From the IMG/VR virus record IMGVR_UViG_2698536485_000021: a stretch of 36,937 bases of DNA; one strand, 5' to 3'. Position numbers and translations under genes: made by a program. The notes beneath the pieces were generated by a model. The model saw nothing but the letters and a program-made list of their open reading frames with translations, was not told the origin of the DNA and made no database searches. Below, piece by piece: positions 1,137 to 12,110 of this stretch (the first letter of the stretch is position 1; every line of letters begins with the position of its first letter). This DNA comes from a virus. Lineage: Duplodnaviria > Heunggongvirae > Uroviricota > Caudoviricetes.

Positions 1137-2813
1137 CTAAGCAACATGTAGTTCATCGTTGGCGGAAGTGGCTGCTTTGCGTTCCTGCTCAATAGCTAGT
1201 GACTCTCTATATTCTTTCGCCTCTGCAAACATTGTCCAGTGGGCATTGATGTTCATATCTTCAATAACCGATTTAATTTCTTTAATATTTACGTTAAAAA
1301 ACTCTTTTCGTGAGTTAATTTTATTGACCTGCTTTTCGTTGAAGACTTTATGCAGATGATTTTCTAATGACGGTGCATCATCACTATAAATCATCGCATG
1401 AACATCGAACGAAAAAGGAACACTAGCATCCCCAAGTTCACGAACACGATCAAGTGGTTCAAGGCGGCGTGTCATTCCAATTTTATATACATCTTCGCCA
1501 AATGAGCCAATATTGCTAATTATATAAACATGGCCTGATCTAGTTTGTTGAGCCATAGAAATAGCTCGTTGGTTTTTAGCTTCAGCTTCTTCATATTTTA
1601 ACTGTAGTTCAGCTATTTTTTGCTCTAAAGCTAAGCGTTGTTCTTCATTTGCAAGCATAAGCTCTTTCGTTGCTTTATTTATAGCTTGCTGAATAGCTTT
1701 TTCTTCTTTTTCGGCTTCTTTTATCGCTTTTTCATACTCTCTACGAGCTCTTTCCTCTTCACGAAGCTGTTCTTTAATCCTTCTTTGCTCCTCTTTTTCT
1801 TCGAGCATAATTTCATTAACTGCAACTCCCCATTTTAGCTCGTTGAGTCGTGCCTGAAGATAGATGTCACTTATTTTTGCGGATCTAAAAGCAGAGCCAT
1901 TATAATTTACAAGTTGAAATGCATCTTTTATTTCTTGGGAAAGTTTTCCAAAATTGTTGTGTTTGACTTTTGATAAAATACTGTCAACTCTTCCATTGAA
2001 GGCATCCAAAACAAAGTTGATAGCAGTATTACGCCTGTTTTGCTCAACATAATCACACGAAGCTGCTTTATTAGTTTTTATTAATGATTTTGTTAACTCC
2101 CTGGCTTTTTGTAATTCCTTGCCTGCATCTGTAAACTCATAATTTTCTGCCAATTCATCAAGTACACTACGGTTAGGGATGATCCATTCATCGCCATAAC
2201 CTTCAATTTTATTTTTCATTGATTTGGCAACTGCTTCATATTTTTCTGCAAACTCTTTAGCTTCATATGCTGAACCAGCAATCTCTTTTGCTCTTTCTTC
2301 TGCATCGGAAATAATTTTTACTGCGTTGTCATTAGCATTTGAGATCAGCTCATTTGCTTTACTGTTGGCATTATCAAGACGTTCTTTGGCTTTCAGGCGT
2401 GCATCGCGAGCGTCTTTGGTGATTGCTATAGCTTCGCTATTAGCGTTGCTTATTGTTATCTGAGCTTGATAACTTGCTTCGTTTACTGTCTTAGCTGCCT
2501 TTATTTGGGCTTCTTCTATTTTTTGCCTAGCTATTGAGTCTGCATTTTTTATCTTATTCTCTGCCTCCATCACTGCGCTGTGCAATTCTTCGTATTGCCA
2601 TAATGGTGCTGCTCGCCCTTCAAGCTCTGATAGATCTCGTGCAGTCTGTGCTAACTTTTCTTGATTTTCACTCAGTTGGCTGGAAAGGGCTATGTTGTTA
2701 GCCGTCTGGTTATCTATGGCGGCTTTGTGTTCTTTACTTTGCTTAAATAATATTATAGCTAGAACAGGGGCGAGAAATGCTAATAAGAATATAACGATGG
2801 AAAATGAATTCAT
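1137..2813 (-). CDS. Membrane-anchored coiled-coil protein with C-terminal T5orf172 (GIY-YIG-like) domain; N-terminal part resembles DUF4041
   Basis: 558-aa ORF; N-terminal hydrophobic helix (FSIVIFLLAFLAPVLAIILF); long low-complexity A/E/K/Q-rich helical region; C-terminal GHVYIISN...YKIGMT...FNVNIKEIKSVIE matches the T5orf172 pattern; AGGA RBS 8 nt upstream; region visibly AT-rich. Confidence 0.75.
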   Translation of the reverse strand: MNSFSIVIFLLAFLAPVLAIILFKQSKEHKAAIDNQTANNIALSSQLSENQEKLAQTARDLSELEGRAAPLWQYEELHSAVMEAENKIKNADSIARQKIEEAQIKAAKTVNEASYQAQITISNANSEAIAITKDARDARLKAKERLDNANSKANELISNANDNAVKIISDAEERAKEIAGSAYEAKEFAEKYEAVAKSMKNKIEGYGDEWIIPNRSVLDELAENYEFTDAGKELQKARELTKSLIKTNKAASCDYVEQNRRNTAINFVLDAFNGRVDSILSKVKHNNFGKLSQEIKDAFQLVNYNGSAFRSAKISDIYLQARLNELKWGVAVNEIMLEEKEEQRRIKEQLREEERARREYEKAIKEAEKEEKAIQQAINKATKELMLANEEQRLALEQKIAELQLKYEEAEAKNQRAISMAQQTRSGHVYIISNIGSFGEDVYKIGMTRRLEPLDRVRELGDASVPFSFDVHAMIYSDDAPSLENHLHKVFNEKQVNKINSRKEFFNVNIKEIKSVIEDMNINAHWTMFAEAKEYRESLAIEQERKAATSANDELHVA

Positions 2814-2833: not shown

Positions 2834-3121
2834 TCAATTTGAAACTATTGTACTTCTTATACAAGCAACCACTTCAATATCAGAAAATGCACATTCAAAG
2901 CTATTCTCTGTAGTTGTAATTTTAATCATACCTTTTGGAAGCTTTGTGATTTTTCGAATGGAATAGGTTCCGTCGATGTTGATTAACCAGTGTCCATCAA
3001 GTACTTCAGAAAATTTTTGATCACAAATGTATGTGACAAGCCCATCCTGAATAACAATTGGTGATGAAAGATTTGCAGGAAGAAATGATGAATCGAATAC
3101 ATATGAACCATCTTCAATCAT
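2834..3121 (-). CDS. 95-codon ORF: either the C-terminal domain of an interrupted 186 CI-like repressor or a separate small gene co-transcribed with the T5orf172 gene
   Basis: Same frame as the HTH ORF at 3191-3430, separated only by one TAA (3191-3193) and 23 open codons; weak RBS of its own; AT-rich like the cargo gene. Confidence 0.45.
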   Translation of the reverse strand: MIEDGSYVFDSSFLPANLSSPIVIQDGLVTYICDQKFSEVLDGHWLINIDGTYSIRKITKLPKGMIKITTTENSFECAFSDIEVVACIRSTIVSN

Positions 3122-3190
3122 TTTGCCTGCGGTAAGGCGAAACTTGGGAAGCTCTTCTGTGGCTACTGTCAGCGAGCTTTGCTTAAGTCC

Positions 3191-3430
3191 TTACCCGGTG
3201 GTTAACCATTTCAGTGAGGTTCCTGTTTCAAGAGCACATTGGATTATCCAGTCTGCAGGAAACGTATCCCGCAAATACCTGTTCGCCAGAGTGCTTTTTG
3301 ATACTTCCAAGTGATCAGCTAAAGCCTGTCGTGTCGTAAAGCCATAAGCTTCGACTAATCGCTCAATCGCAGCCTTACCACCTTTATTGGGATTTATTTT
3401 GATCTCACTTGGGTACTTTGATGTTGACAT
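3191..3430 (-). CDS. Immunity repressor, HTH DNA-binding N-terminal domain (186 CI-like); ends at an in-frame TAA
   Basis: 79-aa ORF with HTH-like segment (TTRQALADHLEVSKSTLANRYL); divergent from the apl/cox-like gene across a 95-bp control region, as in P2/186 switches. Confidence 0.7.
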   Translation of the reverse strand: MSTSKYPSEIKINPNKGGKAAIERLVEAYGFTTRQALADHLEVSKSTLANRYLRDTFPADWIIQCALETGTSLKWLTTG

Positions 3431-5330: not shown

Positions 5331-6184
5331 GCACCATCCTGAAATGGGCGGGTAATAAAACCGCCATTATGTCCGAACTGAAAAAATACCTTCCTGCTGG
5401 CCCGCGACTGGTTGAACCTTTCGCGGGTTCTTGTGCTGTGATGATGGCGACGGATTACCCCAGCTATCTGGTTGCGGATATTAATCCTGATTTAATCAAC
5501 CTCTATAAAAAGATTGCCGCTGATTGCGAAGCGTTTATATCTCGTGCCAAAGTTTTATTTGAGGAAGCAAACAGTGAGCTGGCTTATTACAACATAAGAC
5601 AGGAGTTTAATTACTCAACTGAAATTACTGATTTCATGAAGGCGATATATTTCCTGTATCTCAATCGTCACGGTTACCGTGGTTTATGTCGCTATAACAA
5701 GAGCGGGTATTTCAACATTCCCTACGGTAATTATAAAAATCCGTATTTCCCTGAAAAAGAAATTCGCGCATTTGCAGAGAAAGCCCAGCGGGCAACGTTT
5801 ATCTGCGCGAGCTTTGATGAAACGCTGGCGATGCTGCAGGTGGGGGATGTGGTGTATTGCGATCCGCCGTATGACGGTACGTTTTCCGGCTATCACACTG
5901 ATGGTTTCACTGAAGATGACCAGTATCACCTGGCATCCATTCTTGAACATCGGTCATCAGAAGGACATCCGGTCATTGTTTCTAACAATGACACATCCCT
6001 GATTCGTTCGCTGTATCGCAATTTTACTCACCACTATATCAAGGCAAAACGCAGCATCGGCGTGTCAGCTGGCGAGGGTAAATCTGCAACAGAAATCATT
6101 GCTGTTTCCGGGCCGAGCTGCTGGTTGGGATTTGATCCTTCGCGTGGCGTGGATAGTTCTGCCGTGTACGGAGTGTGTGTATGA
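5327..6184 (+). CDS. dam: DNA adenine methyltransferase (Dam-like, N6-adenine MTase)
   Basis: N-terminal KWAGNK and FAGSCAV (SAM-binding) plus DPPY catalytic motif; start overlaps the TraR stop and its stop overlaps the gene A start. Confidence 0.85.
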
Positions 6185-8595
6185 GTCATGACGATATGAA
6201 CAATTGCAGCGGCTTTAACGAGGCCGCCGCAGCATTTTCATGGAACGGCTCGAAAAAGGCCATTAACCCTTATCTGGACCCGGCGGAAGTTGCGCCGGAG
6301 TCTGCACTTTCAAACCTGATCACTCTGTACGCTGCCGATAACGAGCAGGAACAACTGCGCCGCGAGGCACTGAGTGAGCAGGTCTGGGAGCGTTATTTCT
6401 TTAATGAATCCCGTGATCCTGTCCAGCGCGAAATGGAGCAGGATAAGCTCATTAGCCGGGCAAAGCTGGCGCATGAACAGCAGCGTTTTAATCCGGACAT
6501 GATCATTCTGGCGGACGTAAACGCCCAGCCTTCCCATATCAGCAAGCCGCTGATGCAACGTATTGAATACTTCAGCAGCCTGGGCAGGCCAAAGGCTTAT
6601 TCCCGCTATTTGCGTGAGACGATTAAGCCATGTCTGGAGCGACTGGATTGTGTACGTGACAGTCAGCTATCTGTTTCTTTCCGTTTTATGGCAAGCCATC
6701 AAGGGCTGGAGGGTCTGCTGATCCTGCCTGAAATGAGCCAGGATCAGGTGAAACGCCTGTCCACCCTGGTAGCAGCGCATATGAGCATGTGTCTTGAGGA
6801 CGCTTGTGGTGATTTGTATGCCACCGATGACGTTAAGCCAGAAGAAATCCGCAAGACATGGGAAAAGGTGGCAGCGGAAACCCTGCGTCTGGATGTTATC
6901 CCGCCTGCGTTTGAGAAACTTCGTCGGAAAAGAAACCGCCGCAAACCAGTGCCCTATGAACTCATCCCGGGTTCGCTGGCGCGTATGTTGTGTGCCGACT
7001 GGTGGTATCGGAAATTATGGAAGATGCGTTGCGAATGGCGGGAAGAGCAGTTGCGTGCTGTCTGCCTGGTCAGCAAAAAAGCATCCCCCTATGTCAGCTA
7101 TGAAGCCGTGATGCATAAACGTGAGCAGCGCCGTAAGTCGCTGGAGTTTTTTCGTTCTCATGAACTGGTGAACGAAGACGGCGACACGCTGGATATGGAA
7201 GATGTGGTAAACGCCAGCAGCAGCAACCCGGCGCATCGCCGCAATGAGATGATGGCCTGTGTTAAAGGTCTGGAGCTTATCGCGGAAATGCGCAGTGACT
7301 GTGCCGTTTTCTACACTATCACCTGTCCGTCGCGTTTCCATTCCACGCTCAATAACGGCAGACCAAACCCGACCTGGACAAACGCGACGGTAAGACAAAG
7401 TAGCGATTATCTGGTCGGCATGTTTGCTGCATTTCGTAAGGCTATGCATAAAGCCGAGTTGCGCTGGTATGGCGTGCGGGTAGCTGAGCCGCATCATGAC
7501 GGTACTGTGCACTGGCATCTCATGTGTTTCATGCGTAAAAAAGACCGCCGCGCCATCACTGCATTACTGCGTAAGTTTGCCATCCGTGAAGACCGCGAGG
7601 AGCTGGGCAATAACACGGGACCACGCTTTAAGTCTGAGCTTATAAACCCGCGCAAAGGTACGCCAACAAGCTATATCGCGAAATACATCAGTAAGAACAT
7701 TGACGGGCGTGGTCTGGCTGGGGAGATCAGCAAGGAAACGGGTAAATCCCTGCGTGATAACGCTGAATACGTTAATGCCTGGGCGTCTCTGCATCGTGTT
7801 CAGCAATTCCGCTTCTTTGGCATTCCGGGGCGTCAGGCTTACCGTGAACTGCGATTGCTGGCTGGTCAGGCGGCAAGGCAACAGGGTGACAAAAAAGCAG
7901 GTGCGCCGGTACTGGATAACCCGCGCCTTGATGCCATTCTGGCTGCTGCTGATGCTGGTTGTTTTGCCACCTATATCATGAAGCAGGGCGGCGTACTGGT
8001 TCCCCGTAAATATCACCTCATCAGAACCGCTTATGAAATCAACGAAGAGCCAACCGCCTATGGCGATCACGGTATTCGTATTTATGGCATCTGGTCACCC
8101 ATTGCAGAGGGCAAGATCTGCACTCATGCGGTGAAGTGGAAAATGGTTCGTAAGGCCGTTGACGTTCAGGAGGCGGCAGCCGACCAGGGCGCTTGCGCCC
8201 CTTGGACTCGTGGCAATAACTGTCCCCTTGCTGAAAATTTGAACCAACAAGGGAAAGACAAATCAGCTGATGGGGACTCCAGAACGGATATTACCCGTAT
8301 GAATGACAAGGAGTTGCACGATTACCTGCACAGTATGAGCAAAAAAGAGCGCCGGGAACTGGCTGCAAGGTTACGCCAGGTGAAACCGAAACGGCGTAAA
8401 GACTACAAACAGCGAATTACAGACCATCAGCGACAGCAGCTCGTCTATGAACTGAAGTCCAGGGGATTTGATGGCAGCGAGAAAGAAGTCGATTTGCTCC
8501 TTCGCGGCGGCAGTATTCCGTCAGGAGCAGGCCTGCGTATCTTCTATCGGAACCAGCGTCTGAAGGAAGATGATAAGTGGCGGAACCTATATTAA
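6181..8595 (+). CDS. A: Replication initiation protein A (rolling-circle nickase, P2 gpA-like)
   Basis: ~805 aa; HUH-type motif (VHWHLM) and tandem active-site tyrosine motif (YIAKYISK); position after the early small genes. Confidence 0.85.
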
Positions 8596-8687
8596 TTACG
8601 CGGGTTAACAATTCGTGCTCTTAATAATACCAGGCATATCAGGCCGATGAACGTAAAAAAACGTTTTACATCAGTAAGATTATTATA

Positions 8688-8707
8688 TACTGTAAATATA
8701 AACAGTG
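8688..8707. promoter_or_regulatory. LexA operator (SOS box) TACTGTAAATATAAACAGTG upstream of the 8748 ORF
   Basis: Fits CTGT-N8-ACAG with an AT-rich spacer (CTGT 8690-8693, ACAG 8702-8705); 40 bp upstream of a strong AGGAGG RBS and ATG. Confidence 0.7.
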
Positions 8708-8747
8708 GTTATGTGTACAGTATTGTTTTGGTGTCATAGGAGGAAAG

Positions 8748-8936
8748 ATGCAGGACTATTTTTTGGAGTCTTTGAAGCTCCAGCGCATTGATTTTTTTCT
8801 TAAGCTTGTAGCGGCTAGTGAGTGTAGTGATGAAGAGAAGGGGCTGGCTCTGCAGTGGGTTTCTGAATTGACTGATGAACTCATGGCAAAAATCAGAAGC
8901 CACGAATACAACCGCTCAATGGATGTCATCAGCTGA
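8748..8936 (+). CDS. SOS-controlled small protein; possible Tum-like antirepressor component
   Basis: 62-aa ORF with AGGAGG RBS directly downstream of the LexA box; 186 carries the LexA-controlled antirepressor gene tum at this position. Confidence 0.5.
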   Translation: MQDYFLESLKLQRIDFFLKLVAASECSDEEKGLALQWVSELTDELMAKIRSHEYNRSMDVIS

Positions 8937-8946
8937 GGTGACTTTT

Positions 8947-9180
8947 ATGCGCATTGAAATAATGATCGATAAAGAGCAGAAGATTAGCCAGTCTACCCTG
9001 GACGCCCTTGAATCCGAGCTTTACCGCAATCTGCGCCCCCTGTATCCCAAAACGGTAATTCGCGTTCGCAAAGGTAGCTCTAACGGTGTGGAACTAACCG
9101 GACTGCAACTGGATGAAGAAAGAAAACAAGTGATGAAAATTATGCAGAAGGTGTGGGAGGACGACAGCTGGCTGCATTAA
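8947..9180 (+). CDS. DinI-family protein
   Basis: MRIEIMIDK...ELTGLQLDEERKQVMKIMQKVWEDDSWL follows the DinI pattern (N-terminal MRIE and C-terminal acidic W-containing tail); GAGGTG RBS 7 nt upstream of ATG 8947. Confidence 0.75.
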   Translation: MRIEIMIDKEQKISQSTLDALESELYRNLRPLYPKTVIRVRKGSSNGVELTGLQLDEERKQVMKIMQKVWEDDSWLH

Positions 9181-9372
9181 GAAATGTTGCCCCCAGGAGG
9201 ATTCATTCTGATGGGGGCTAGTTTGGGCAATGAGTGAAATAAGGCGTAAGGTGGGCGGTTATTTTGATAAGTGATCGTCCGCTTTGTGTCAGAAGCAGAA
9301 GTGGGAGTGTCTGAGACTCTCTAAAAGTTGATGATTCACTTACAAAACCATTTTCCTGATGGATGCTTACAC

Positions 9373-9708
9373 TTACGAATGATCATTCTGTTTAGTCTTC
9401 ATGAGAAAATCCCGAATCTTTGCCAAGTTTGAATTTTCGGGGATTGAATCCATGTACGGATCACGCTCAAACACTAATTGCTCAGATTCAACGAAAGCCT
9501 GCCACTCTACTGGGTCTAGCTCAAATCCCATTGCTGTCATATCACTTTCATCTTCCCCCTCGATCCAGTGGACTAAATAAAACAATTCATCATCAGGAGA
9601 ATCATCCTCACCATCAACAATATCAACATCGGTTACAGTGATACGTAGGGTGGGATCGATTTTTGAGACATAAATTCCTAACTGTGGTATAGGGGGAATA
9701 TTGTTCAT
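9373..9708 (-). CDS. Small, strongly acidic protein of unknown function
   Basis: 111-aa ORF rich in D/E (DVDIVDGEDDSPDDE, EGEDESD); AGGAG RBS upstream; opposite strand to its neighbours. Confidence 0.6.
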   Translation of the reverse strand: MNNIPPIPQLGIYVSKIDPTLRITVTDVDIVDGEDDSPDDELFYLVHWIEGEDESDMTAMGFELDPVEWQAFVESEQLVFERDPYMDSIPENSNLAKIRDFLMKTKQNDHS

Positions 9709-10087
9709 GGAAACTCCTTTTATTGGTGTTTGCTATTTGAATAAAAATACGCCAAACAGAGTGTTAACTGTGAATATGGAAAGAATCGTTGTAAGTACCC
9801 CGCTTAGGTGTCCCATTCTATTTTAGAGGTTCTCGTGCATATGGATTATGTTATCTGAAAGTTAACTTCCGCTTCCCGTTCACAGCGAACATTCATCTTT
9901 GTAAACCCGTATGATCCGTTTTTCAAGTGGCCATTCAGATACGGATTTTTACTTCTTTGACAGTGCATGACTATGCTGCATGAAATCGCATGATCGATTG
10001 AGGATCGTCTTTGCTCAGATCCGCCAGAACTGGCGGGCTTTTGCTCATGTCATGCATGTGCATGAAAACCACTGCATAAAGCGGGCA

Positions 10088-10106
10088 GGCGTGGCGGGGA
10101 TACGAG
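10088..10106. other. Possible cos (cohesive-end) site: GGCGTGGCGGGGA...
   Basis: From memory, P2/186 cohesive ends begin GGCG(A/T)GGCGGGGAAAGCA; the first 13 nt match here and the rest diverges; position between gene A side and Q side is as expected. Confidence 0.25.
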
Positions 10107-10184
10107 CGCGCGCAATGCTATGATCTGGCTCTTTCAAAACTGTTAACGGTTCTTCACATTCTTAAATGATCATGGTAGCTTAAA

Positions 10185-10322
10185 CATGCACATGTAGGCA
10201 GATTTGTTGGTTGTGGTATCGCAATCAGTGATCTAAATGTTAGATGGATTCGCCTTCTGACATCCTTGTAGCCATTCTTGGGCTGTCCTATGCTTTGCGT
10301 AAGAGTGCCTACATGTGCCTAC
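10185..10322 (+). ncRNA. Retron msr-msd non-coding RNA (template/primer for msDNA), approximate bounds
   Basis: Perfect 13-bp inverted repeat GCACATGTAGGCA (10188-10200) / TGCCTACATGTGC (10306-10318) placed like retron a1/a2 repeats, ending about 35 bp before the RT start; total span fits an Ec67-size msr+msd. Confidence 0.5.
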
Positions 10323-10353
10323 CCTAACTGATAATCAAGGTTGATTTTTAGAT

Positions 10354-11856
10354 ATGGCACCCCTATCAATTTTAGAACGTTTACAAAACGCTGCTAACAG
10401 GCAAGATTTGGCTAGTATCTTGAATCTTAAAACTGCTTTTCTTACGGATGTTATTTATCGTTTAAAAGCTGAAACGCAGTATACACAATTTACTATTCCT
10501 AAAAAAAACGGAGCGCCGAGAGTCATATCAGCACCTACCACTAAGCTCAAAGATATTCAACGTAGATTAGCTGATGTTTTATATTTATGTCGTGCAGAAA
10601 TTTATAAAAAATATAATATTAATCCAGTTTTATCTCATGGGTTTGAAAAAGAAAAGTCAATTATTACGAATGCTGAACGGCATAGAGGTAAAACGCTACT
10701 ACTAAATATAGATCTTGAGGATTATTTTGATAGTTTTAATTTTGGACGTGTTAGAGGTTTTTTCTTATCAAACAGAGATTTTAGATTAAATAATACTGTT
10801 GCTACAACGATCGCACAAATTGCATGTTTTCAGAATGGACTTCCTCAAGGAAGCCCATGCTCTCCAATTATAAGTAACTTAATCAGTGGAATTCTTGATA
10901 TAAGATTATCAAAGTTAGCAAAGAAATACGGATGCAATTATTCACGGTATGCTGATGATCTTACATTTTCAACTAATAAAAAAACATTTCCAAAAGAGAT
11001 TGCTGATGTTGGCGGAGAGTCTGTAACCCTAAGTCCAACTTTAATTAAAGAGATTATAAAGGCTGGCTTTAAAATAAATGATAAAAAGACAAGGGTTTGT
11101 TATAAAACATCACGACAAGATGTTACTGGGTTGACTGTTAATAAAAAAGTGAATGTTGGCAAAGAATATGCAAAAGTAACGCGTGCCATGGCTCATTCTC
11201 TTTATAAAGATGGTTCTTTTGTTATTGTTACTGAATCAGGAAAGATTGAAAAAGGTACATGTGCTAAATTAGAAGGCCGTTTTGGATTCATTGACTCAAT
11301 AGATAAATATAATAATTTAAAACTAAAGAATGCAAGACAGTTGGAAAAGTACCAAAGTGTAAATCATGGATTAAATTACACTGCAAAATTGAATTCGAGA
11401 GAAAAAGCCTACAGTTATTTTCTATACTATAAAAATTTTCATGGAATGGAAATGCCAACAATACTCACTGAGGGTAAAACAGACCGTGTATATTTAAAGT
11501 GTGCTTTGAAGTCATTGGCGAATTCATATCCTTTATTGTTTAATTCTTCTGATGATAGCTCTAAAAATGAGTATCGTGTTAATTTTTTTAAAGCAACTGA
11601 AAAAACAAGCTATTTTCTTGACATTTCTGGCGGTGCTACAGACTTCAAAAGATTTATATTAAGATACCAAGAACAAAAAAAGAGGTTCGAGAAATTTAAA
11701 CCAAAGCACCCTGTTATTATGCTTCTTGATAATGACTCAGGCCCTAAAGATTTATTAAATCACTTAAAGGATAAAGTAAAAATTGTCCAAATGATGTTGA
11801 TACTATTCGTAAGGCAAGGTATACCCACATATTTGACAATCTCTATTTGTTATTAA
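10354..11856 (+). CDS. Retron reverse transcriptase fused to a TOPRIM domain (Retron-Eco2/Ec67-like), reading frame broken near the 3' end
   Basis: RT motifs NIDLEDYFDS, QGSPCSPIISN, RYADDLTFS and retron-type VTGLTVN; TOPRIM-like TEGKTD glutamate and LLDNDSG DxD motif. Confidence 0.8.
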   Translation: MAPLSILERLQNAANRQDLASILNLKTAFLTDVIYRLKAETQYTQFTIPKKNGAPRVISAPTTKLKDIQRRLADVLYLCRAEIYKKYNINPVLSHGFEKEKSIITNAERHRGKTLLLNIDLEDYFDSFNFGRVRGFFLSNRDFRLNNTVATTIAQIACFQNGLPQGSPCSPIISNLISGILDIRLSKLAKKYGCNYSRYADDLTFSTNKKTFPKEIADVGGESVTLSPTLIKEIIKAGFKINDKKTRVCYKTSRQDVTGLTVNKKVNVGKEYAKVTRAMAHSLYKDGSFVIVTESGKIEKGTCAKLEGRFGFIDSIDKYNNLKLKNARQLEKYQSVNHGLNYTAKLNSREKAYSYFLYYKNFHGMEMPTILTEGKTDRVYLKCALKSLANSYPLLFNSSDDSSKNEYRVNFFKATEKTSYFLDISGGATDFKRFILRYQEQKKRFEKFKPKHPVIMLLDNDSGPKDLLNHLKDKVKIVQMMLILFVRQGIPTYLTISICY

Positions 11857-12110
11857 CACCATTGCTTCCTGGAGGGAAAGAGTCTTGTATGGAGGATTTA
11901 TTTGATAGCACGGTACTATCAACGGTGCTTGATGGAAAGACATTTAATAAATCTAATGATACGGATACAAAAACAGAATATGGTAAGCATGTGTTTTCAA
12001 CAAAGGTTATAAAGGCAAATTGTAAAACAATTAGTTTTGAAAAGTTTAAAGTTATTTTTGATGGTGTTGAGGAAATTATTGCAGATTATTCAAAGAGGTG
12101 CAAAGTATAA
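11775..12110 (+). pseudogene. C-terminal continuation of the RT-TOPRIM gene in a shifted frame (apparent 1-bp deletion within 11775-11856)
   Basis: Second frame opens at 11775 and runs to 12110; 500 + ~87 codons is close to the ~586 aa I recall for the Ec67 RT. Confidence 0.5.

What the first reader, a model, noticed from the sequence alone, without database searches (positions are those of the whole stretch)
8688..9180. SOS-controlled module: LexA box, small ORF and DinI-family protein
A near-consensus LexA operator (TACTGTAAATATAAACAGTG) lies 40 bp upstream of a 62-aa ORF with a strong RBS, followed within 10 bp by a DinI-family gene with its own RBS. In 186 the equivalent position holds the LexA-controlled antirepressor Tum, whose C-terminal part is DinI-like. 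Here the function appears split across two ORFs in different frames, which could be a variant SOS-induction switch or a remnant of a frameshifted tum.
Basis: partly seen in the sequence, partly recalled or inferred. Interest (0 to 1): 0.5.

Follow-up and report, generated by a model that had tools for sequence, protein, structure and literature searches.

The report
Split Tum antirepressor SOS operon
This is the already described DNA-damage switch of a Fels-2/186-type P2-like prophage: a LexA-repressed promoter drives a small antirepressor, whose identical copy in E. coli HS is needed for prophage induction, and a separate DinI-like protein, so it is ordinary although databases still call the small protein hypothetical.

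Summary
A LexA box (8688-8707) lies 40 nt upstream of a 62-aa ORF (8748-8936). A 77-aa DinI-family gene (8947-9180) follows after 10 nt, in another frame. All of this sits directly after the P2-type replication gene A.

This is the split form of the 186 tum SOS operon, already annotated as tumA/tumB in PSP3 and described for Fels-2. It is not a frameshifted remnant.
- The 62-aa protein is 100% identical to ECHS_RS04495 of E. coli HS prophage DuoHS. A published in-frame deletion of that gene, whose primers map onto this ORF's start and stop, abolishes mitomycin C induction. So does lexA(Ind-).
- Profile comparisons show it is a distant homologue of the N-terminal antirepressor half of 186 Tum, although BLASTP finds nothing.
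- Both genes are under strong purifying selection (dN/dS 0.03-0.12).
- More distant relatives keep the position and a LexA box but lack dinI.

Two extras came up:
- The operator is a double overlapping box. It is about 84% identical over 35 nt to colicin and pesticin operators.
- In this copy the presumed target, CI, carries an ochre stop at codon 80, and the tape-measure gene is also broken, so the prophage is probably defective.

Novelty: already known. Interest is low.

The parts
8665..8670 (+). Putative -35 hexamer TTTACA of the tum promoter (p95 equivalent)
   Evidence: Read from the sequence. It lies 17 nt upstream of TACTGT (8688-8693), the same layout as the annotated 186 p95 (TTCACA-18-TACTGT). 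TTTACA is conserved in Fels-2, SopEPhi, Yersinia MLG42 and Klebsiella phi4.1. The consensus scan did not call a promoter because only 8 of 12 positions match, so this is an inference by analogy.
8688..8707 (.). LexA box 1 (TACTGTAAATATAAACAGTG; core CTGT-N8-ACAG). Its left arm doubles as the putative -10.
   Evidence: Only window match to the consensus with up to 3 mismatches; 0 of 100 shuffles had one. A near-consensus box lies 15-48 nt upstream of the start codon in all 16 other family-member loci examined.
8703..8722 (.). LexA box 2, degenerate (CAGTGGTTATGTGTACAGTA; core GTGG-N8-ACAG). Its core shares G8705 with box 1, giving a colicin-type double overlapping operator.
   Evidence: Conserved across the Fels-2 clade although the flanks diverge (operator 87% against flanks 48-63%). 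It is 84% identical to the colicin R, colicin N and pesticin operators, where the flanks are 20-27%. LexA binding to box 2 was not tested.
8738..8743 (+). Shine-Dalgarno AGGAGG of the 62-aa gene
   Evidence: Sequence.
8748..8936 (+). tum (tumA-like) gene: 62-aa stand-alone antirepressor, homologue of the N-terminal half of 186 Tum
   Evidence: 100% identical to ECHS_RS04495, the tum gene deleted in DuoHS. hhalign against the 186 Tum N-half family: 96.7%, E 4.3e-10. PHROG cross-hits. dN/dS 0.06-0.12. AF2 predicts a two-helix hairpin, pLDDT 88.
8947..9180 (+). dinI-like (tumB-like) gene, 77 aa, with its own SD GAGGTGA at 8935-8941
   Evidence: Pfam DinI 5.5e-23. 43% identical to 186 Tum residues 71-145. 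Full-length match to E. coli DinI 1GHH. dN/dS 0.03-0.10.
9189..9218 (+). GC-rich hairpin (GCCCCCA...TGGGGGC) just after dinI; possible weak end of the operon
   Evidence: RNA fold of 9175-9300: MFE -47.5 kcal/mol, z = -5.3. It has no proper U tract and the terminator scan did not call it, so this is weak. Similarity to Fels-2-type phages ends at about 9178-9190.
2834..3430 (-). cI repressor gene, the presumed target of Tum. Here it is a pseudogene with an ochre stop at codon 80 (TAA at 3191-3193).
   Evidence: Translation. The codon is CAA in the 99.8%-identical UMNF18 copy. PGAP notes an internal stop in the identical genome.

Best explanation
This is the SOS-induction operon of a Fels-2/DuoHS-type P2-like prophage, that is, the split (tumA/tumB-like) form of the coliphage 186 tum operon.

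Proposed mechanism:
1. In undamaged cells LexA occupies a strong box that overlaps the -10 of a promoter just downstream of gene A. It probably also occupies a second, overlapping weaker box, as in colicin operators. The two-gene operon is thereby kept tightly off.
2. DNA damage activates RecA, LexA cleaves itself, and the operon is transcribed.
3. The first product is a 62-aa two-helix protein homologous to the N-terminal half of 186 Tum. It acts as an antirepressor: it binds the 186-type CI immunity repressor and stops it from binding DNA. The early lytic promoter is derepressed and the prophage induces. Inactivation is by sequestration, so it is reversible.
4. The second product is a stand-alone DinI homologue. 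It is accessory and probably modulates RecA filaments and hence the SOS signal. It is not the inducer.

Shown here in silico: the anatomy, homology, conservation and selection. Shown in the literature: the identical protein and lexA dependence are required for induction in DuoHS. Inferred: CI binding, the role of box 2, the role of DinI, and the promoter hexamers.

In this copy the cI gene has a nonsense codon after the DNA-binding domain and the tape-measure gene is also broken. The switch is intact, but the prophage it controls is probably defective.
For: Anatomy and position:
- The elements are as described, in the same position and promoter/operator layout as the annotated 186 p95-LexA-tum.
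- PSP3 is annotated tumA ('similar to 5' end 186 tum; UV induction of prophage') and tumB ('similar to dinI and 3' end of 186 tum').
- PMC3121763 states that Fels-2 and PSP3 have tum split in two, and that the upstream PSP3 gene encodes the antirepressor.
- The region is 96-98% identical to Fels-2 STM2728/STM2726.1.

Function of the small protein:
- It is 100% identical to ECHS_RS04495.
- Primers NHR24/NHR28 of PMC12055606 map to 8728-8750 and 8934-8956. The published delta-tum therefore removes exactly this ORF and leaves dinI.
- Delta-tum and lexA(Ind-) both abolish mitomycin C lysis and virion foci.

Homology to 186 Tum:
- hhalign of A4 against A5: 96.7%, E 4.3e-10, residues 1-44 on 1-44.
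- hhalign of A4 against full 186 Tum: 94.9%.
- PHROG cross-hits: 186 Tum hits phrog_698 at 2.4e-5, and the window ORF hits phrog_8554 and phrog_1993.

Conservation:
- dN/dS is 0.03-0.12 for both genes.
- A LexA box is present upstream in every relative examined, including members 35-50% identical whose flanks are unalignable.
- Those distant members lack dinI, so the small protein is the conserved core.

Mechanism of 186 Tum: SOS derepression of p95, then Tum inhibits and sequesters CI, and repression returns when SOS decays (PMC7708051).

Operator: colicin double boxes bind two LexA dimers and prevent untimely expression (PMC2994835). The operator here is 84% identical to them.
Against: - No direct test exists for this locus. 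CI binding by the 62-aa protein is inferred from distant homology (19% identity in the hhalign alignment; BLASTP finds nothing).
- PSP3 TumA alone aligns only weakly to the family profile (8.6%).
- The simple promoter scan did not call the promoter.
- Box 2 has a GTGG left arm, and LexA binding to it is untested.
- No canonical terminator was found after dinI.
- In this copy CI is truncated at codon 80, so the module may have nothing functional to act on in cis.
Confidence: 0.9

Rival explanations
1. Decaying remnant: a once-fused 186-like tum gene was broken by a frameshift. The 62-aa ORF is then a non-functional leftover and only the DinI part still matters.
For: The two ORFs are in different frames and 10 nt apart. 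In 186 both parts are one 146-aa protein. BLASTP finds no similarity between the 62-aa ORF and Tum.
Against: - dN/dS is 0.06-0.12 at dS of about 1 for the 62-aa ORF.
- It is intact in 1126 of 5426 complete E. coli genomes, in Fels-2, and in Klebsiella, Yersinia and Cronobacter phages.
- 67 representative clusters were found, most of them stand-alone proteins of about 55-75 aa.
- Distant members occur with no dinI at all.
- Stand-alone 63-78 aa homologues also exist in the 186-type family.
- Deletion of the identical gene abolishes induction.
Confidence: 0.02
2. The module is real and LexA-controlled, but in this prophage it is functionally orphaned. With cI truncated and the tape-measure gene broken, it no longer triggers productive induction in cis. 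It persists by recency of the lesions, or because it acts in trans on other P2-like prophages or modulates the host SOS response through DinI.
For: - CI carries Q80* (CAA to TAA), a single change relative to a 99.8%-identical intact copy.
- PGAP pseudogene flags mark cI and the tape-measure gene.
- The same Tum62 (97-100% identical) serves prophages whose CI proteins differ strongly: NTD 66-77% and CTD 25-41% identity. That makes action across immunity types plausible.
- Some genomes hold up to 3 copies of the module.
- Trans-acting antirepressors are documented for Gifsy and Fels-1.
Against: It does not conflict with the main explanation; it only qualifies it for this copy. How a lysogen tolerates a truncated CI is unexplained. 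No second prophage in the same genome was examined. Trans action of this Tum is untested.
Confidence: 0.5
3. The 62-aa protein has some other job, for example the 'levan regulatory protein' label seen in some records, and the DinI-like protein is the real effector of induction.
For: Some records label homologues 'levan regulatory (domain) protein'. Pfam and NCBIfam have no model for it, and its PHROGs are of unknown function.
Against: No Pfam family matches at E <= 0.01, so the levan label has no support here. The published deletion removes only this ORF, keeps dinI with its SD, and abolishes induction. Distant relatives lack dinI yet keep the LexA box and the position. [quoted passage not shown]
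Confidence: 0.03

Closest known systems
tum of E. coli HS prophage DuoHS (ECHS_RS04495) with the downstream DinI-like ECHS_RS04500 (PMC12055606)
   Same: The 62-aa protein is 100% identical. LexA box 1 is identical and the layout is the same. The chromosomal attachment site next to rcdA is the same. The gene order A-tum-dinI is the same.
   Different: The immunity repressor differs (CI NTD 76%, CTD 41% identical) and is intact in HS but truncated here. Three bases differ in the spacer of box 2. The moron region downstream of dinI differs: here a retron Ec67-type RT.
Fels-2 STM2728 + STM2726.1 (split tum) of Salmonella Typhimurium LT2
   Same: 96.9% DNA identity over the module. 97% protein identity for the 62-aa ORF. 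The double operator is the same. The literature describes it as a tum coding region split in two.
   Different: Different host genus. The CI is more divergent (NTD 67%, CTD 28%). In Fels-2 dinI is followed by a 732-nt (243-codon) ORF, STM2726, the same length as 186 orf97. That gene is absent here.
PSP3 tumA/tumB
   Same: Same split architecture: a LexA box, a small antirepressor gene, then a separate dinI-like gene after gene A. TumA and the window ORF are linked through PHROGs 1993, 8554 and 698.
   Different: TumA belongs to the 186-type subfamily. It has no BLASTP similarity to the window ORF and only a weak profile match. In PSP3 the two genes are in the same frame with a single intervening codon after the tumA stop; here they are 10 nt apart and out of frame. 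PSP3 has a single LexA box 20 nt from the start codon.
Coliphage 186 Tum (146 aa) and its p95 SOS operon
   Same: The position after gene A is the same. The LexA box overlaps the -10. The N-terminal half is homologous to the 62-aa ORF, and the C-terminal half is 43% identical to the DinI-like ORF. The presumed mechanism is reversible inhibition of CI DNA binding.
   Different: In 186 the two parts are fused, and internal starts also give a free 77-aa DinI-like product. 186 has a single LexA box, and its operon continues into orf97.
Double overlapping SOS boxes of colicin and pesticin promoters on Col-type plasmids
   Same: The 35-nt operator TACTGTA..CAGTGGTT..TACAGTA is 84% identical to the colicin R, colicin N and pesticin operators, and 825 plasmid records match. 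The two box cores share one base. In colicins the double box binds two LexA dimers and prevents untimely expression of a lethal function.
   Different: The flanks and the regulated genes are unrelated (flank identity 20-27%). In colicin promoters the boxes lie downstream of a separate -10. Here box 1 appears to overlap the -10. Whether the similarity reflects shared ancestry or convergence on LexA is undecided.
Gifsy and Fels-1 LexA-controlled antirepressors (GfoA, GftA, FsoA) with a dinI homologue
   Same: A LexA-controlled operon combines a small antirepressor with a dinI homologue. The repressor is inactivated by binding, not by cleavage.
   Different: The gene order is reversed (dinI first). 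The phages are lambdoid and the repressor family is different. Sequence relatedness to the 62-aa ORF was not tested.

Membership tests
Tum-type antirepressor (N-terminal half of 186 Tum / PSP3 TumA / DuoHS Tum) | Sequence homology to the Tum N-terminal (non-DinI) region | tested here: met
   BLASTP is negative. Profile-profile comparison: 96.7% probability, E 4.3e-10, collinear from residue 1 to 44. Against single 186 Tum: 94.9%. Independent PHROG cross-hits. 100% identical to DuoHS Tum.
Tum-type antirepressor (N-terminal half of 186 Tum / PSP3 TumA / DuoHS Tum) | LexA operator at the promoter (an SOS-controlled gene) | tested here: met
   Met in silico only: a near-consensus box at 8688-8707, conserved in all relatives examined. 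Experimental support comes from lexA(Ind-) in DuoHS, which has an identical box 1.
Tum-type antirepressor (N-terminal half of 186 Tum / PSP3 TumA / DuoHS Tum) | Location immediately downstream of replication gene A in a P2/186-like genome that carries a 186-type CI | tested here: met
   Phage_GPA gene at 6175-8595. The CI homologue aligns with 186 CI. The same synteny holds in 186, PSP3, Fels-2, HS and the distant loci.
Tum-type antirepressor (N-terminal half of 186 Tum / PSP3 TumA / DuoHS Tum) | Required for SOS induction of the prophage | not testable with these tools
   Published for the identical protein in DuoHS (PMC12055606). Not tested for this locus, whose CI is truncated.
Tum-type antirepressor (N-terminal half of 186 Tum / PSP3 TumA / DuoHS Tum) | Binds CI and blocks its DNA binding | not testable with these tools
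   Known for 186 Tum (Shearwin 1998, as cited). Only inferred here. Indirect hint: the CI NTD is conserved among prophages that share this Tum.
DinI family (PF06183) | Full-length match to the DinI profile above the curated cutoff | tested here: met
   81.5 bits against a cutoff of 24.2. Residues 1-75 align to residues 1-77 of E. coli DinI 1GHH. It falls below the NCBIfam equivalog cutoff (44 against 111 bits), so it is a family member, not the chromosomal dinI orthologue.
DinI family (PF06183) | Binds RecA filaments and modulates co-protease activity | not testable with these tools
   Inferred from family membership. The C-terminal WEDDSW motif aligns with the WESADDW of DinI.
Colicin-type double overlapping SOS operator | Two 16-nt LexA cores that overlap by one base | tested here: met
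   Cores at 8690-8705 and 8705-8720. 84% identity to the colicin R, colicin N and pesticin operators against 20-27% in the flanks.
Colicin-type double overlapping SOS operator | Occupancy by two LexA dimers | not testable with these tools
   Reported for colicin operators. Untested for this sequence. Box 2 has GTGG in place of CTGT.

The most novel reading that the evidence does not exclude
Two readings remain open.

1. The 35-nt double LexA operator may be a regulatory cassette shared, by exchange or by strict convergence, between Col-plasmid bacteriocin promoters and Fels-2-type tum promoters. It would give prophage induction the same tight, late, all-or-none SOS timing as colicin release.

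2. The 62-aa Tum may recognise the conserved N-terminal DNA-binding domain of CI. One antirepressor could then induce P2-like prophages of several immunity types in trans, including from a defective prophage such as this one.

I found no open-access paper that states either point, but I could not read Bunny et al. 2002.
Probability: 0.3. Interest if true: 0.4.

Novelty: already known. Interest (0 to 1): 0.2.

Why it matters
Little is new biologically. LexA-controlled Tum antirepressors are the textbook induction route of 186-type phages. The split tumA/tumB form is annotated in PSP3 and described for Fels-2, and the identical gene has been knocked out in E. coli HS.

The practical value is annotation. 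The 62-aa antirepressor is labelled 'hypothetical protein' (or, misleadingly, 'levan regulatory protein') in RefSeq and phage records. It has no Pfam or NCBIfam model, and its PHROGs are of unknown function. Yet it occurs in about a fifth of complete E. coli genomes and decides whether those prophages respond to DNA-damaging antibiotics.

Two side observations are cheap to test and would refine how induction thresholds and prophage cross-talk are set:
- the colicin-like double operator;
- one Tum sequence serving divergent CI repressors.

Tried and rejected
- BLASTP of the 62-aa ORF against 186 Tum and PSP3 TumA gave no alignment. Profiles were needed.
- The hairpin 8925-8942 spans the tum stop codon and the dinI SD and was flagged as terminator-like. 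I considered it as an attenuator or translational-coupling device. It is not conserved in SopEPhi, MLG42 or Klebsiella phi4.1, so I rejected it as a feature.
- The consensus sigma-70 scan found no promoter. The promoter assignment therefore rests on analogy with 186 p95 and on conservation of TTTACA.
- No canonical intrinsic terminator follows dinI. The hairpin at 9189-9218 is only a candidate.
- Rfam search of 8400-10600 gave no match at E <= 0.1.
- The search for related loci with alignment A4 failed because no stretch was conserved enough. I used the look-up of encoding contigs and phage records instead.
- PDB sequence search with the family profile gave no hit.
- Foldseek of the AF2 model gave only generic helical hairpins, none with E <= 0.001, so it gives no functional lead.
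- Bunny et al. 2002 (PMC151935), the primary Fels-2 lexA/tum paper, is not held.
- The minus-strand ORFs that overlap tum (8709-8903, 8756-8929) and the 101-aa upstream-extended dinI ORF (8875-9180) are treated as mechanical ORFs. The plus-frame selection signal, the PGAP calls and the DinI alignment starting at M1 all favour the annotated frames.

Full report
**1. Observation**

The window is a P2-like prophage inserted next to rcdA. The identical sequence occurs in E. coli 2014C-3061 and five other complete genomes. The P2/186-type replication gene A lies at 6175-8595 (Pfam Phage_GPA, 3.6e-127).

- TACTGTAAATATAAACAGTG at 8688-8707 is the only match in the window to the 20-nt LexA consensus with up to 3 mismatches. 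None of 100 shuffles had one.
- The core CTGT-N8-ACAG alone is not rare: 40 of 100 shuffles had at least one.
- A 62-aa ORF runs from 8748 to 8936, with AGGAGG at 8738-8743.
- A 77-aa ORF runs from 8947 to 9180, with its own GAGGTGA, 10 nt after the first stop and in another frame.
- The 77-aa protein is a DinI-family member (81.5 bits against a cutoff of 24.2). It is 43% identical to residues 71-145 of 186 Tum and aligns end to end with E. coli DinI 1GHH.

**2. What it is**

The 0.6-kb module is 96-98% identical in Fels-2, RE2010, many Klebsiella phages and other Peduoviridae. Similar DNA occurs in 1126 of 5426 complete E. coli genomes.

- Phage 186 is annotated at the same position with promoter p95, a LexA site overlapping its -10, and tum. 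tum encodes the 146-aa antirepressor plus internally initiated DinI-like products.
- PSP3 is annotated with two genes: tumA ('similar to 5' end 186 tum; UV induction of prophage') and tumB ('similar to dinI and 3' end of 186 tum').
- Lemire et al. [quoted passage not shown] The split arrangement is therefore described.

**3. Direct experimental link**

The 62-aa protein is 100% identical to ECHS_RS04495 of E. coli HS. The Phollow paper (PMC12055606) made an in-frame delta-tum at that locus tag in prophage DuoHS.

- Its junction primers are NHR24 and NHR28 (ATAGGAGGAAAGATG|TGAGGTGACTTTTATGCGCATTG).
- They map to window 8728-8750 (one mismatch) and 8934-8956 (exact).
- The deletion therefore fuses the start and stop codons of exactly this ORF and leaves dinI and its SD in place.
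- Delta-tum and lexA(Ind-) both abolish mitomycin C-induced lysis and virion formation.

**4. Is the small ORF related to Tum?**

BLASTP says no. Profile methods say yes.

- An exhaustive HMMER search of 1.84 billion representatives found a small family: 67 representatives at E <= 1e-3, most of them stand-alone proteins of about 55-75 aa.
- I built a 28-member alignment of this family (A4) and a 20-member alignment of the 186 Tum N-half family (A5).
- The two match at 96.7% probability, E 4.3e-10, collinear over residues 1-44 of both. A4 against the single 186 Tum sequence gives 94.9%.
- PHROGs gives independent support:
  - The window ORF hits phrog_698 (5.9e-38), phrog_8554 (1e-8) and phrog_1993 (2e-3).
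  - 186 Tum hits phrog_1993 (1e-22), phrog_8554 (1.4e-11) and phrog_698 (2.4e-5, residues 7-44).
  - PSP3 TumA hits phrog_1993 (2.7e-32).
- All three PHROGs are of unknown function, and Pfam and NCBIfam have no model. This is an annotation gap, not a knowledge gap.
- AlphaFold2 predicts a two-helix hairpin (helices 2-23 and 28-61, pLDDT 88). It has no informative structural neighbour.

**5. Not a remnant**

- Among the window, Fels-2, SopEPhi, Yersinia MLG42 and Klebsiella phi4.1 copies, dN/dS is 0.06-0.12 for the 62-aa gene and 0.03-0.10 for dinI, at dS up to about 1.3.
- More distant members (35-50% identity) sit at the same place after gene A. They are followed directly by the convergent ogr and portal genes, with no dinI.
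- Stand-alone 63-78 aa proteins also exist in the 186-type subfamily.

The small antirepressor is the conserved core and DinI is an add-on. Whether the fusion in 186 is ancestral or derived was not resolved.

**6. Regulation**

Every family member examined has a near-consensus LexA box 15-48 nt upstream of its start codon, even where the surrounding DNA cannot be aligned.

In the Fels-2 clade the operator is double.

- Box 1 is at 8688-8707.
- An overlapping box 2 (CAGTGGTTATGTGTACAGTA, core GTGG-N8-ACAG) is at 8703-8722.
- The two 16-nt cores share G8705.
- The 35-nt element is 87% identical among four divergent phages, against 48-63% in their flanks.
- It is 84% identical to the operators of colicin R, colicin N and pesticin, against 20-27% in the flanks. 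In total 825 plasmid records match.
[quoted passage not shown] Such operators give no detectable basal expression (PMC2994835).

By inference the tum operator is tuned the same way, which fits a gene whose expression kills the host.

The promoter is inferred. TTTACA (8665-8670) lies 17 nt upstream of TACTGT (8688-8693), mirroring the annotated 186 p95 (TTCACA-18-TACTGT). The -35 hexamer is conserved across the clade. The simple scan did not call a promoter because only 8 of 12 positions match.

The operon appears to hold only the two genes.

- Similarity to other phages ends at about 9180-9190.
- A GC-rich hairpin lies at 9189-9218.
- The next ORF (9373-9708) is on the opposite strand.

**7. 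Mechanism**

1. DNA damage activates RecA, and LexA cleaves itself.
2. The promoter is derepressed.
3. Tum62 binds CI and blocks its DNA binding, as shown for 186 Tum: a reversible, sequestration-type antirepressor, with repression restored when SOS decays.
4. The early lytic promoter fires.

The DinI-like protein probably modulates RecA filaments. [quoted passage not shown]

One hint about the Tum target comes from the CI repressors. The window, HS and Fels-2 prophages share Tum62 at 97-100% identity. Their CI repressors are 66-77% identical in the N-terminal DNA-binding domain but only 25-41% in the C-terminal domain. This fits recognition of the N-terminal domain and possible action across immunity types. 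It is an inference only.

**8. Caveat for this copy**

- The cI gene (2834-3430, minus strand) has an in-frame TAA at codon 80 (3191-3193). The 99.8%-identical UMNF18 copy has CAA there. PGAP marks the gene as a pseudogene.
- The tape-measure gene also has an internal stop.
- The prophage is therefore probably defective. The SOS module, although intact, may be orphaned here or may act only in trans.
- How the host tolerates a CI that lacks its oligomerisation domain is unexplained.

**9. Verdict**

- Observation: confirmed.
- Interpretation: partly supported. It is a split-tum SOS switch, not a frameshift remnant.
- Novelty: already known.
- Interest: low. Its value lies mainly in fixing the 'hypothetical protein' annotation and in two small testable side observations: the colicin-type double operator, and one Tum serving divergent CI repressors.

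Noticed in passing
window 2834-3430 (- strand); stop codon at 3191-3193: The 186-type CI immunity repressor carries an in-frame ochre stop at codon 80, right after the N-terminal HTH domain. The codon is CAA in a 99.8%-identical E. coli UMNF18 copy. PGAP flags the gene as a pseudogene in the identical genome. How the lysogen survives without full-length CI is unexplained.
   Followed up: partly
window 8688-8722: The LexA operator is a double overlapping box. It is about 84% identical over 35 nt to the operators of colicin R, colicin N and pesticin on Col-type plasmids (825 plasmid records match), while the flanks are unrelated. I found no open-access paper that notes this for tum promoters.
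   Followed up: partly
window about 29117-32194 (+ strand; coordinates converted from CP027548 2625369-2628446): PGAP annotates the phage tail tape-measure gene as a pseudogene with an internal stop in the identical genome. This is a second lesion suggesting a defective prophage. I did not inspect the codon myself.
   Followed up: no
window 10354-11856 (+) and 11889-12110 (+): A retron Ec67-family reverse transcriptase/endonuclease ORF of 500 aa is followed by a separate 73-aa ORF in another frame. From memory Ec67 RT is about 586 aa, so the gene may be frameshifted. Rfam found no msr/msd-like RNA in 8400-10600.
   Followed up: no
window 1137-2813 (- strand): A 558-aa DUF4041 ('SNIPE-associated') protein is encoded between int and cI, a typical moron or anti-phage defence position.
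   Followed up: no
window 9243-9290 and 9373-9708 (- strand): A long G-U-rich hairpin of about 22 bp lies between dinI and a convergent 111-aa ORF (phrog_17127, unknown function). It may be the terminator of that minus-strand gene. The fold of 9175-9300 has z = -5.3.
   Followed up: partly
L010-L016, L020, L021 (distant Tum62 relatives): In P2-like phages with Tum62 homologues 35-50% identical, the gene stands alone between gene A and the convergent ogr and portal genes. It has a single LexA box 15-23 nt from the start codon and no dinI.
   Followed up: yes
window 8748-8936 homologues in public records: Homologues are annotated 'hypothetical protein' or 'levan regulatory (domain) protein'. No Pfam or NCBIfam model exists, and phrog_698, phrog_8554 and phrog_1993 are of unknown function, although these families include the 186 Tum N-half and PSP3 TumA.
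   Followed up: yes
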